This document shows positions 31,127-31,885 of a DNA stretch of 64,000 nucleotides, piece after piece. The position numbers and the translations under genes were made by a program. The stretch's first letter is position 1. The number at the start of each line of letters is the position of its first letter. Origin of the DNA: Escherichia coli (lineage in GTDB: Bacteria; Pseudomonadota; Gammaproteobacteria; Enterobacterales; Enterobacteriaceae); NCBI RefSeq assembly GCF_045037415.1, contig NZ_CP173440.1; one strand, 5' to 3'. The notes beneath the pieces were generated by a model, which ran no database searches, was not told the DNA's origin, and worked only from the letters and a program-made list of their open reading frames with translations.

Positions 31127-31885
31127 AAAGTTACTTTTTTTTGTTCACGGCAAAAATTTTACACATGATTCTTCTGTGGCAAGGGCTCCAGGAGCCGGAT
31201 TTCGGTGTTTATGTGAAGAAAATTTTTTCAGTGGTATGCCGGGGATCATAATTTTTGGATAATTTTGAAGGAGATACGAACAGTGAAGGTGATTACAGAC
31301 GATGCATGTCTCATTGATTTTTAGGACATAAATCGTCAAAAGTTACTTTTTTGAGGGTGATAACGACACTTGAACACGCTTCTCAGGACAGAAAAGTAAC
31401 TTTTTTCAGTGCTGAGCCCACTCTTTCAAAAGTTACTTTTTGATAAAACCTGCGTTCGGGGAAGGAGGCAAAGCTTGCGGGGGGAAGGAAGAAACTATTT
31501 TTATCTGATTGTGCAAATCATAGACGCTCAGCCCGTCATGTTGATCCCCGTACGCAGATAGACAAATGTTCGGGGTTTAAAAAGTTACTTTTCAGGTGCT
31601 GTGCTGTTTCACGCTGCCGGATACATAGCAGGTACAGGTATCCTGTCCTGCTATGAGAAGACCAGCGCCCCTGTTTAGTTCGTCTCTGTTTGCAGCTCTT
31701 TGCGAGCGTTTGCGATCAACTCGTTCACTTCATCGCGGTCAAATCCTGGCATTGCGGGCAAAACCGTATCGGAAGGAACGGCATCAATCCACTCAAGAGC
31801 CGCAAGCAGTGCGCTTAGTAATTGTTCATTAATTTTCATTAGACCGCCTATTTCAACCTTTTTACTATCTTTAAAAAGTTACTTT
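31127..31885. promoter_or_regulatory. cluster of six AAAGTWACTTT palindromes in a 0.76-kb non-coding stretch
   Basis: motif cores start at 31127, 31339, 31393, 31429, 31581, 31875. Confidence 0.6.

What the first reader, a model, noticed from the sequence alone, without database searches (positions are those of the whole stretch)
31127..31885. Six motif copies clustered next to the ParB-like gene: possible centromere-like or autoregulatory site
Six of the palindromes sit in a 0.76-kb non-coding stretch immediately upstream of the ParB-like gene (29775-31016, minus strand). ParB/KorB proteins bind clustered palindromes near their own genes and also dispersed operators, so this gene is the most economical candidate for the protein that reads the motif.
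Basis: inference. Interest (0 to 1): 0.6.

Follow-up and report, generated by a model that had tools for sequence, protein, structure and literature searches.

The report
IncH plasmid palindrome beside KorB-like gene
A 13-base palindrome that is scattered about 90 times over the backbone of a large Klebsiella resistance plasmid piles up in front of an orphan ParB/KorB-type DNA-binding gene, which suggests, but does not prove, a plasmid-wide control network that nobody has described for this clinically important plasmid family.

Summary
Six exact AAAGTWACTTT copies lie at 31127-31885; 25 occur in the window (0.05 expected), or 28 with any central base. The window is backbone of a Klebsiella IncHI1B/IncFIB (pNDM-MAR-type) conjugative plasmid. 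The motif (RAAAGTNACTTTY) is the dominant palindrome of IncH backbones: 88 copies in PittNDM01 p1, 46 in R27, 7 in 41 kb of R478, none in acquired islands, about 64% intergenic. The six copies persist (65/66 core bases) in a lineage whose surrounding non-coding DNA is about 72% identical.

The 413-aa product is a real ParB-family protein (ParB N-domain, HTH, disordered linker, helical C-domain; best fold match KorB). It has no adjacent ParA. Its orthologues in R27 and R478 also carry a copy about 105 bp upstream of the start codon.

The KorB-like reading (dispersed binding sites plus a hub at the gene) is the best explanation but is circumstantial. A partition centromere is unlikely.

Corrections: the stretch is not wholly non-coding (a conserved 54-aa gene), and the proximal site sits about -66 from the predicted promoter, not over it.

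The parts
31127..31137 (.). Motif copy 1 (AAAAAGTTACTTTTT). It lies 110 bp upstream of the ParB-like ATG and 26 nt upstream of the predicted -35 hexamer.
   Evidence: position-conserved in R27 and R478; invariant in pNDM_3214
31339..31349 (.). Motif copy 2
31393..31403 (.). Motif copy 3 (central A)
31429..31439 (.). Motif copy 4. The central base differs in pNDM_3214 while the arms are unchanged.
31581..31591 (.). Motif copy 5
31875..31885 (.). Motif copy 6. It lies 35 nt upstream of the 54-aa ORF and 14 nt downstream of the DUF957 gene stop.
29775..31016 (-). 413-aa orphan ParB/KorB-family protein. Domains: ParB N-domain about residues 19-130 with G101-H-C-R104-H-R; HTH DNA-binding domain about 135-253; disordered acidic Gly/Ser/Asn-rich linker 260-331; helical C-terminal domain 335-412.
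31073..31100 (-). Predicted sigma-70-type promoter of the ParB-like gene: TTGATG (31100-31095), 16-nt spacer, TATCCT (31078-31073). It belongs to a family of similar promoter-like elements. Consensus match only.
   Evidence: the block is 100% conserved in pNDM_3214
31675..31839 (-). 54-aa ORF inside the 'non-coding' stretch. It is annotated in RefSeq plasmids, and substitutions are mostly at third codon positions.
31900..32355 (-). DUF957-domain gene upstream of the cluster
338..348 (.). Dispersed motif copy
379..389 (.). Dispersed motif copy (central G)
2466..2476 (.). Dispersed motif copy, 11 nt before the ATG of ORF 2488-3066
8650..8660 (.). Dispersed motif copy inside the cytosine-methyltransferase gene
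11365..11375 (.). Dispersed motif copy
12041..12051 (.). Dispersed motif copy
14795..14805 (.). Dispersed motif copy
16677..16687 (.). Dispersed motif copy
37265..37275 (.). Dispersed motif copy
38666..38676 (.). Dispersed motif copy, 22 nt upstream of a promoter-like element of the same family
39777..39787 (.). Dispersed motif copy
43469..43479 (.). Dispersed motif copy
45234..45244 (.). Dispersed motif copy, 26 nt upstream of the promoter-like element of the DUF4942 gene (same spacing as at the ParB-like gene)
47479..47489 (.). Dispersed motif copy
48285..48295 (.). Dispersed motif copy (central G)
49579..49589 (.). Dispersed motif copy (central G)
51306..51316 (.). Copy 1 of the four-copy cluster downstream of the IncHI1B repB gene
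51477..51487 (.). Copy 2 of the rep-adjacent cluster
51594..51604 (.). Copy 3 of the rep-adjacent cluster
52161..52171 (.). Copy 4 of the rep-adjacent cluster, 62 nt beyond the repB stop
57074..57084 (.). Dispersed motif copy inside the type IV-A DinG helicase gene
61475..61485 (.). Dispersed motif copy

Best explanation
RAAAGTNACTTTY is the specific binding site of a dimeric, plasmid-encoded DNA-binding protein of IncH plasmids. The most likely reader is the orphan ParB/KorB-family protein encoded at 29775-31016, possibly together with its paralogues. On this reading the protein docks on the roughly 90 dispersed palindromes through its HTH domain. By analogy with KorB, VirB, BisD and Noc, it may then close into a nucleotide-dependent clamp that spreads from these sites and modulates backbone promoters. 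The five copies in the 0.66-kb leader of its own gene, plus a sixth in front of the small upstream ORF, would act as a high-occupancy hub that feeds back on its own expression. They would not be a partition centromere.

Shown here: the motif, its abundance, its restriction to the backbone, its conservation, the protein fold, and the conserved gene-proximal position.

Inferred: who binds the motif, clamp behaviour, and the sign of regulation.
For: - **Abundance and restriction.** The motif is a discrete 13-bp palindrome with no conserved flanks. It is hugely over-represented: 25 copies against 0.05 expected in the window, 88 in PittNDM01 p1 and 46 in R27, where it is by far the commonest palindrome. 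It is absent from resistance, transposon, ter and mer islands. By the incomplete PLSDB annotation, 47 of the 74 W-centred copies are intergenic, against 25% non-coding DNA.
- **Spread within IncH.** The same motif occurs in IncHI1, IncHI2, IncHI1B and two divergent IncH-like contigs. It is absent from IncC, which carries a distant homologue.
- **Selection.** Cores are 65/66 conserved against 72% in neighbouring non-coding DNA.
- **Protein family.** PHROG 1033 'ParB-like' matches at E = 1e-23. The family profile hits Spo0J, ParB, Noc and KorB chains across the N-domain and HTH, with E from 4e-17 to 3e-7. 53 of 70 homologues hit Pfam HTH_ParB. The AF2 model has pLDDT 82 (97-98 in the folded part), and its best Foldseek match is KorB 8QA9.
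- **Nucleotide motif and architecture.** G101 and R104, the GxxR nucleotide motif named in the BisD paper (PMC12409273), are invariant in the family. The order N-domain, DNA-binding domain, long disordered linker, C-domain mirrors the KorB architecture described in PMC11790492.
- **Site geometry.** KorB's OB site (TTTAGCSGCTAAA) and BisD's bisS site are also odd-length palindromes with a free central base (PMC11790492; PMC12409273).
- **Gene-site linkage.** The densest cluster on the plasmid is at this gene. The orthologues in R27 and R478 each have two copies upstream, the proximal one aligned with copy 1 here. A more distant orthologue (L012) has a one-mismatch copy at the same distance.
- **Weakest point of the TrhR/TrhY rival.** The F-operon upstream region, the standard TrhR/TrhY-responsive reporter, has no copy in R27 or PittNDM01.
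Against:
- Between this protein and its R27 and R478 orthologues, the DNA-binding domain is only 37-41% identical and the HTH only 32-36%, although the core motif is identical. For canonical ParB/parS, from my own knowledge, the HTH is much better conserved.
- IncH plasmids carry two or three paralogues. Paralogue B also has a copy 106 bp upstream in PittNDM01 and sits beside a seven-copy cluster.
- About 30% of copies are intragenic and a few lie between convergent genes, so the motif is not a simple operator.
- Copy 1 is centred about -66 from the predicted promoter rather than over it.
- The canonical GERRxR motif reads GHCRHR here, so CTP binding is uncertain.
- Marine homologues with a similar recognition helix have no such motif nearby.
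- pKP13f lacks the gene yet keeps the backbone.
Confidence: 0.45

Rival explanations
1. The palindrome is read by another IncH-encoded regulator, and the ParB-like gene is only one more member of that regulon. The obvious candidates are the TrhR/TrhY activator pair with its antagonist HtdA, or paralogue B or C of the ParB-like family.
For: - In R27 an htdA mutation derepresses 139 of 181 expressed genes, so a plasmid-wide circuit exists whose DNA target is not defined in that paper (PMC7366339).
- Copies lie upstream of trhR, of the H operon and oriT region, and of trhA.
- Paralogue B (R0042 by my ORF count) is called a 'partition protein', is highly expressed and is co-regulated with tra genes. 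In PittNDM01 it has a copy 106 bp upstream.
- The ParB-like gene is no better conserved than these candidates: 36% identity against 30-35%.
Against: - The F-operon upstream region, the standard TrhR/TrhY-dependent reporter, has no copy within one mismatch in R27, and none in PittNDM01. The R27 Z and AN upstream regions also lack it.
- TrhR, TrhY and HtdA show no recognisable DNA-binding domain, though the TrhR model was too poor to judge.
- HtdA is reported to act on TrhR/TrhY at the protein level (PMC7366339).
- The recognition helix of paralogue B is even more variable among plasmids that share the motif.
Confidence: 0.25
2. A conserved host (Enterobacterales) DNA-binding protein reads the palindrome, and IncH backbones have accumulated sites to recruit it.
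For: The 11-bp core is invariant across plasmids whose proteins are only about 43% identical at the median. The HTH of the ParB-like protein is poorly conserved.
Against: I know of no enterobacterial regulator with this consensus (own knowledge, not tested). The densest cluster is tied to one plasmid gene in three IncH subgroups. Enrichment on host chromosomes could not be measured with these tools.
Confidence: 0.12
3. The six-copy cluster is a partition centromere (parS- or sopC-like) for the ParB-like protein, working with a ParA encoded elsewhere.
For: The protein belongs to the ParB family. In RK2, KorB is both centromere-binding protein and global regulator (own knowledge; PMC11790492 names the IncC (ParA)-interacting peptide of KorB).
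Against: - No ParA is adjacent. The only ParA on PittNDM01 p1 is paired with its own ParB about 70 kb away, and R27 additionally has ParM.
- Spacings are irregular at 212, 54, 36, 152 and 294 bp.
- 82 further copies are spread over the backbone.
- pKP13f lacks the gene.
Confidence: 0.06
4. The palindrome is not a protein-binding site but a structural or RNA-level element, such as a hairpin, a terminator, a single-stranded-DNA promoter, or a restriction-modification or Tus/Ter-type site.
For: Several copies abut Shine-Dalgarno sequences, 10-14 nt before start codons. The core contains GTNAC and resembles part of the E. coli Ter core GTAACT (own knowledge). IncH plasmids encode a Tus homologue and conserved methyltransferases.
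Against: A 5-bp stem with a 1-nt loop cannot fold. No Rfam family and no long inverted repeat occur in the region. The motif has no T-tail. Restriction-modification sites are normally avoided rather than enriched, and they are shorter than 11-13 bp. About 90 two-way fork barriers would be harmful.
Confidence: 0.05

Closest known systems
KorB and its OB operators on IncP-1 plasmid RK2
   Same: - ParB-family protein with N-domain, HTH DNA-binding domain, long flexible linker and C-domain; KorB 8QA9 is the best structural match.
- 13-bp odd-length palindrome with a free central base.
- Sites dispersed over the plasmid backbone, some far from promoters.
- Sites upstream of the protein's own operon.
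   Different: - About 16% sequence identity, and no Pfam KorB hit for this protein.
- No adjacent ParA (IncC) and no identified KorA/TrbA-type partner.
- 46-88 sites against 12 in RK2 (title of the reference cited in PMC11790492).
- GHCRHR in place of KorB's GARRYR.
- Helical rather than KorB-type C-domain; no match was found for the C-domain.
- Two or three paralogues per plasmid.
- Binding and CTP dependence are untested.
BisD and bisS on ICEclc (PMC12409273)
   Same: An orphan ParB-like protein of a conjugative element. It has a GxxR nucleotide motif, loads on odd-length palindromes with a free central base, and acts on many element promoters at a distance.
   Different: BisD has two loading sites, not about 90. 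It carries an extra activator domain and needs BisC. No such domain or partner was seen here.
VirB and virS on the Shigella virulence plasmid (PMC10770331)
   Same: A plasmid-borne orphan ParB-family regulator on an AT-rich, H-NS-silenced replicon. IncH plasmids are also H-NS/Hha-controlled (PMC7366339), so an anti-silencing role is conceivable.
   Different: VirB derives from the P1 ParB lineage (own knowledge) and binds few sites with a different sequence. There is no evidence here for anti-silencing.
Noc and its NBS sites in Bacillus subtilis
   Same: A ParB-family paralogue with no ParA that binds some 70 dispersed palindromes, many of them inside genes (own knowledge). Noc chains are among the best sequence and fold matches.
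   Different: Noc is a chromosomal cell-division regulator with a membrane-targeting helix, and its site is a different 14-16-bp palindrome.
CUP repeated promoters and ArdK/KorA control in IncN pKM101 (own knowledge)
   Same: A repeated promoter architecture in front of many same-strand establishment or anti-restriction-type genes. Six GGGG-TTGAYG-N16-TATCCTGG elements occur in the window, three of them with the palindrome 22-26 nt upstream.
   Different: Only the hexamers are conserved here, not a long repeat. The link between these promoters and the palindrome is partial (3 of 7 in PittNDM01).

Membership tests
ParB family (ParB/Srx N-domain plus ParB-type HTH) | N-terminal ParB/Srx-fold domain with the GxxR nucleotide-binding motif | tested here: met
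   The family profile matches Spo0J, ParB and Noc from the N-domain onward (E = 4e-17). The AF2 model has pLDDT 97-98 over residues 20-250, and Foldseek gives probability 1.0 to KorB, ParB and Noc. G101 and R104 are invariant in 70 homologues. The full GERRxR motif reads GHCRHR here.
ParB family (ParB/Srx N-domain plus ParB-type HTH) | ParB-type helix-turn-helix DNA-binding domain | tested here: met
   53 of 70 homologues hit Pfam HTH_ParB PF17762. The query alone stays below threshold. The fold matches the DNA-binding domains of KorB 1R71 and Noc 6Y93.
ParB family (ParB/Srx N-domain plus ParB-type HTH) | CTP binding, hydrolysis and clamp closure | not testable with these tools
   Only the GxxR core is conserved. 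The glutamate and the first arginine of GERR are His and Cys.
ParB family (ParB/Srx N-domain plus ParB-type HTH) | Specific binding to a palindromic site (parS, OB, NBS or bisS) | not testable with these tools
   Only co-location and conservation of the palindrome with the gene could be shown.
ParABS partition system / centromere | Cognate ParA ATPase encoded next to the ParB gene | tested here: not met
   The neighbours are small hypothetical genes, a 54-aa ORF and a DUF957 gene. The plasmid's ParA is paired with another ParB.
ParABS partition system / centromere | Sites confined to a centromere next to the par operon, often in a regular array | tested here: not met
   88 copies are spread over the backbone. 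Spacings in the cluster are irregular.
KorB-type global regulon (IncP-1) | Many copies of one 13-bp palindromic operator across the plasmid backbone, including at the regulator's own operon | tested here: met
KorB-type global regulon (IncP-1) | Sequence membership in the KorB family (Pfam PF08535) | tested here: not met
   No hit for the query. Only 3 of 70 homologues hit it at E <= 0.001. Identity to KorB in the structural alignment is about 16%.
KorB-type global regulon (IncP-1) | Partner repressor (KorA or TrbA) that locks the clamp at promoters | not tested
   No candidate was identified. The neighbouring small ORFs have no family hits.
KorB-type global regulon (IncP-1) | Operator positioned at or near promoters that it represses | tested here: inconclusive
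   Copy 1 is centred about -66 from a consensus-predicted promoter. Eight of 34 intergenic copies lie 101-111 bp upstream of an ATG. About 30% of copies are intragenic. No transcription start data are available.

The most novel reading that the evidence does not exclude
IncH plasmids (R27, R478, and pNDM-MAR-type resistance and virulence plasmids) run a previously unrecognised ParB-clamp network. One or several orphan KorB/BisD-like paralogues load on 46-88 copies of AAAGTNACTTT, roughly one per 2-3 kb of backbone. They spread over the whole 180-300-kb replicon and set backbone and transfer gene expression, possibly as the missing DNA-binding layer beneath the H-NS/Hha and TrhR/TrhY-HtdA thermoregulation. 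That would be by far the largest plasmid ParB regulon known.
Probability: 0.3. Interest if true: 0.75.

Novelty: new variant of a known kind. Interest (0 to 1): 0.55.

Why it matters
IncH plasmids carry NDM and other last-line resistance genes in Klebsiella and multidrug resistance in Salmonella Typhi. Their global regulation is known only through H-NS/Hha and the TrhR/TrhY-HtdA circuit, and the R27 paper read here defines no DNA target for that circuit.

A single invariant 13-bp site present 46-88 times per plasmid, together with a KorB-like candidate reader, gives a directly testable handle on how the whole backbone is controlled, using EMSA, ChIP-seq and site mutagenesis. It could also explain the near-global derepression seen in htdA mutants.

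The finding would extend the emerging theme of ParB-CTPase clamps acting as long-range regulators of mobile elements (KorB, VirB, BisD). The motif is in addition a compact sequence signature for recognising IncH backbones.

Tried and rejected
- **Single-sequence searches of the 413-aa protein.** Pfam, NCBIfam and PDB gave nothing. Only profiles and structure revealed the family.
- **Scan of genome contigs for two copies 15-45 nt apart.** It returned 31 loci. All but one (Klebsiella grimontii) are from AT-rich, unrelated taxa, consistent with chance in 298 Gb, and so uninformative.
- **Distant homologues.** The marine (L013, L014) and IncC (L018) loci showed no enriched palindrome, so no alternative cognate site could be paired with a diverged HTH.
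- **Other elements in 30950-32000.** No Rfam family occurs in the window except a group II intron. No long inverted repeat or Frpo-like hairpin and no tandem array were found.
- **Six-mer enrichment in the flanks of all copies.** No fixed companion element appeared, so the motif is not part of one conserved promoter.
- **TrhR, TrhY, HtdA and the 143-aa 'DNA-binding protein'.** No Pfam or NCBIfam domains were found. The AF2 model of TrhR had pLDDT 48 and was unusable.
- **Literature.** No paper in the library contains the motif in a plasmid context, and none links IncHI1B with ParB and an operator.
- **Rejected on logic.** I considered Tus/Ter sites, restriction-modification targets, RNA hairpins and the Par1 centromere. 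There are no copies in the 3-kb region upstream of parA.

Full report
**1. What the window is.**
The 2.7 kb around the finding is 100% identical to more than 380 Klebsiella plasmids of 200-390 kb. One example is PittNDM01 p1, typed IncFIB/IncHI1B, MOBH, MPF_F. The window is a rearranged piece of that pNDM-MAR-type backbone. Two IS110-family copies (26434-27774 and 53297-54634) flank a segment that is inverted relative to PittNDM01. I fetched almost the whole PittNDM01 plasmid, all of R27 and 41 kb of R478 for comparison.

**2. The observation.**
- AAAGTWACTTT starts at 31127, 31339, 31393, 31429, 31581 and 31875, exactly as reported.
- The window has 25 such copies against 0.05 expected, or 28 if the central base is free.
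- All six local copies are AAAAGTWACTTTT.
- The cluster is the densest on the plasmid. P is about 0.001 under an even spread over the backbone, and about 0.06 under a deliberately conservative null that confines sites to non-coding DNA.
- Against pNDM_3214, whose ParB-like protein is 87-88% identical, the six cores keep 65 of 66 bases. The distal non-coding columns keep 72% (Fisher p = 4e-8). The copies are therefore functional.
- The stretch is not fully non-coding. A 54-aa ORF (31675-31839, minus strand) is annotated in RefSeq plasmids and evolves mainly at third codon positions. Copy 6 belongs to its upstream region.

**3. What the motif is.**
- Symmetrised base frequencies show a discrete 13-bp site, R-AAAGT-N-ACTTT-Y, with W at the centre in about 85% of copies. 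There is no information beyond position -2/+2. R27 additionally prefers G at -2.
- It is by far the commonest palindrome of IncH backbones: 88 copies in PittNDM01 p1, 46 in R27, and 7 in 41 kb of R478. It also occurs in two divergent IncH-like contigs.
- It is absent from the resistance islands and transposons and rare (3 copies) in the ter region. It is also absent from an IncC locus and from marine loci that encode distant homologues.
- By the incomplete PLSDB annotation, 47 of the 74 W-centred copies are intergenic, against 25% non-coding DNA. The rest lie inside genes or at gene junctions, and a few lie between convergent genes.
- Nearly all half-sites occur as full palindromes.
- No conserved companion element flanks the copies. 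No Rfam family, long hairpin or tandem array is present at the cluster.
- This is the signature of a site for a dimeric DNA-binding protein. The distribution resembles KorB OB or Noc NBS sites more than a classical operator.

**4. The gene.**
- The 413-aa product has no single-sequence hit in Pfam, NCBIfam or the PDB.
- It matches PHROG 1033 'ParB-like partition protein' at E = 1e-23.
- A full HMMER search found 255 representatives. A profile of 70 of them hits Spo0J/ParB, Noc and KorB chains across the N-domain and HTH, with E from 4e-17 to 3e-7. 53 of the 70 match Pfam HTH_ParB.
- The AF2 model (pLDDT 82 overall, 97-98 for residues 20-250) shows four parts: a ParB N-domain, a helical DNA-binding domain, a 70-residue disordered acidic Gly/Ser/Asn-rich linker, and a helical C-domain.
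- The best Foldseek match is RK2 KorB (8QA9), followed by CTP-bound ParB and Noc.
- G101 and R104, the GxxR nucleotide motif, are invariant. The canonical GERRxR reads GHCRHR here. KorB has GARRYR (PMC11790492).
- No ParA is adjacent. The plasmid's ParA-ParB pair lies elsewhere.
- IncH plasmids have two or three paralogues: A (this gene), B and, in R27, C.

**5. Link between gene and motif.**
- The R27 and R478 orthologues (36-39% identical) each have two copies upstream. The proximal copy aligns with copy 1 here, about 105-110 bp before the ATG.
- A more distant orthologue (L012) has a one-mismatch copy at the same distance.
- In the window, copy 1 lies 26 nt upstream of a predicted promoter, TTGATG-N16-TATCCT, at 31100-31073. 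This puts its centre near -66.
- That promoter belongs to a family of six minus-strand elements in the window (GGGG-TTGAYG-N16-TATCCTGG). Three of them carry a palindrome 22-26 nt upstream.
- The link is consistent and conserved, but circumstantial.

**6. Evidence that weakens the assignment.**
- Between this protein and its R27 and R478 orthologues, the DNA-binding domain is 37-41% identical and the HTH only 32-36%, although the core motif is identical.
- Overall backbone divergence between the two plasmids is large, with a median of 43% protein identity.
- Paralogue B also has a copy 106 bp upstream and a seven-copy cluster beside it in PittNDM01.
- pKP13f lacks gene A.

**7. Rivals.**
- **TrhR/TrhY-HtdA or a paralogue.** In R27 an htdA mutation derepresses 139 of 181 expressed genes by unleashing TrhR/TrhY (PMC7366339). 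This is a plasmid-wide circuit whose DNA target is not defined there, so it is the strongest rival. Against it, the F-operon upstream region, the standard TrhR/TrhY reporter, has no copy in R27 or PittNDM01, and the R27 Z and AN upstream regions have none. TrhR, TrhY and HtdA show no DNA-binding domain, but the evidence is weak.
- **Host factor.** This would explain the invariance of the core, but I know of none with this consensus and could not test it.
- **Partition centromere.** Unlikely, for the reasons in sections 3 and 4.
- **RNA or structural readings.** Unlikely.

**8. Verdict.**
- The protein is a genuine ParB/KorB-family HTH protein.
- The best explanation is a KorB-like network with dispersed binding or loading sites and a hub at the gene (confidence about 0.45). 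It is not demonstrated.
- It differs from KorB in sequence family, in lacking ParA and KorA partners, in site number and in having paralogues. I therefore file it as a new variant of a known kind.
- No paper in the searchable library describes the motif or the protein's function. The R27 transcriptome paper merely labels R0042, which by my ORF count is paralogue B, a 'partition protein'.

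Noticed in passing
window 31073-31100, 32432-32461, 38614-38643, 39566-39595, 42994-43023, 45178-45207 (all minus strand): A family of promoter-like elements, (a/t)aGGGG(c)TTGAYG-N16-TATCCTGG(g/t)t, with non-conserved spacers. All point the same way, in front of the ParB-like, DUF957, DUF4942 and other small genes. PittNDM01 p1 has seven; the strict pattern finds two unrelated matches in R27, both far from any motif copy. Three carry the palindrome 22-26 nt upstream. They are reminiscent of the CUP repeated promoters of IncN plasmids.
   Followed up: partly
window 51306-52171: A second cluster of four motif copies lies in the 1.15-kb non-coding stretch just downstream of the IncHI1B repB gene (52234-53385, minus strand). 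This suggests a possible link between the motif reader and the replication origin or iterons.
   Followed up: no
window 26434-27774 and 53297-54634: Two inverted copies of an IS110-family element (IS4321/IS5075-like) flank a roughly 25.5-kb segment that is inverted relative to PittNDM01 p1. The window is therefore a rearranged variant of the reference backbone.
   Followed up: partly
window 55423-60397 and 61771-63588: A type IV-A CRISPR-Cas module (Csf2, DinG-type helicase, Cas6) is followed by a group II intron (Rfam RF02005 at 61771-61996, reverse transcriptase ORF 62101-63588). One motif copy lies inside the DinG helicase gene (57074).
   Followed up: no
window 2466-2476 (ATG at 2488); PittNDM01 157994, 183878, 34167: Several motif copies abut the Shine-Dalgarno sequence, only 10-14 nt before a start codon. 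Separately, 8 of 34 intergenic copies sit 101-111 bp upstream of an annotated ATG. These are two preferred geometries that no explanation here accounts for.
   Followed up: partly
R27 (L010) record coordinates 108436, 108478, 108505 (reverse), 108566: The R27 oriT/mobI upstream region has four copies of AAAAGTGACCCTAT, which share the AAAGTGAC half-site with the palindrome. Two full palindromes lie in the same region. PittNDM01 has none of this repeat.
   Followed up: no
L016 (pKP13f, NZ_CP004000.1): This IncHI1B/IncFIB conjugative plasmid gives only one tblastn place for the ParB-like protein (the paralogue next to the tra genes). It is a natural variant without gene A and would be useful as a control for the motif's function.
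   Followed up: partly
window 7360-8787; R27 141140-142567: The C5 cytosine methyltransferase is among the best conserved backbone proteins between R27 and pNDM-MAR-type plasmids (71% identity against a 43% median). It is paired with a restriction enzyme in the latter but stands alone in R27.
   Followed up: no
loci L026, L028, L030, L035, L036, L042, L043, L045, L048, L049: In the genome-contig scan, about a third of the hits for two closely spaced AAAAGTNACTTTT copies come from Prevotella/Prevotellaceae genomes. This may be an unrelated repeat family in that group.
   Followed up: no
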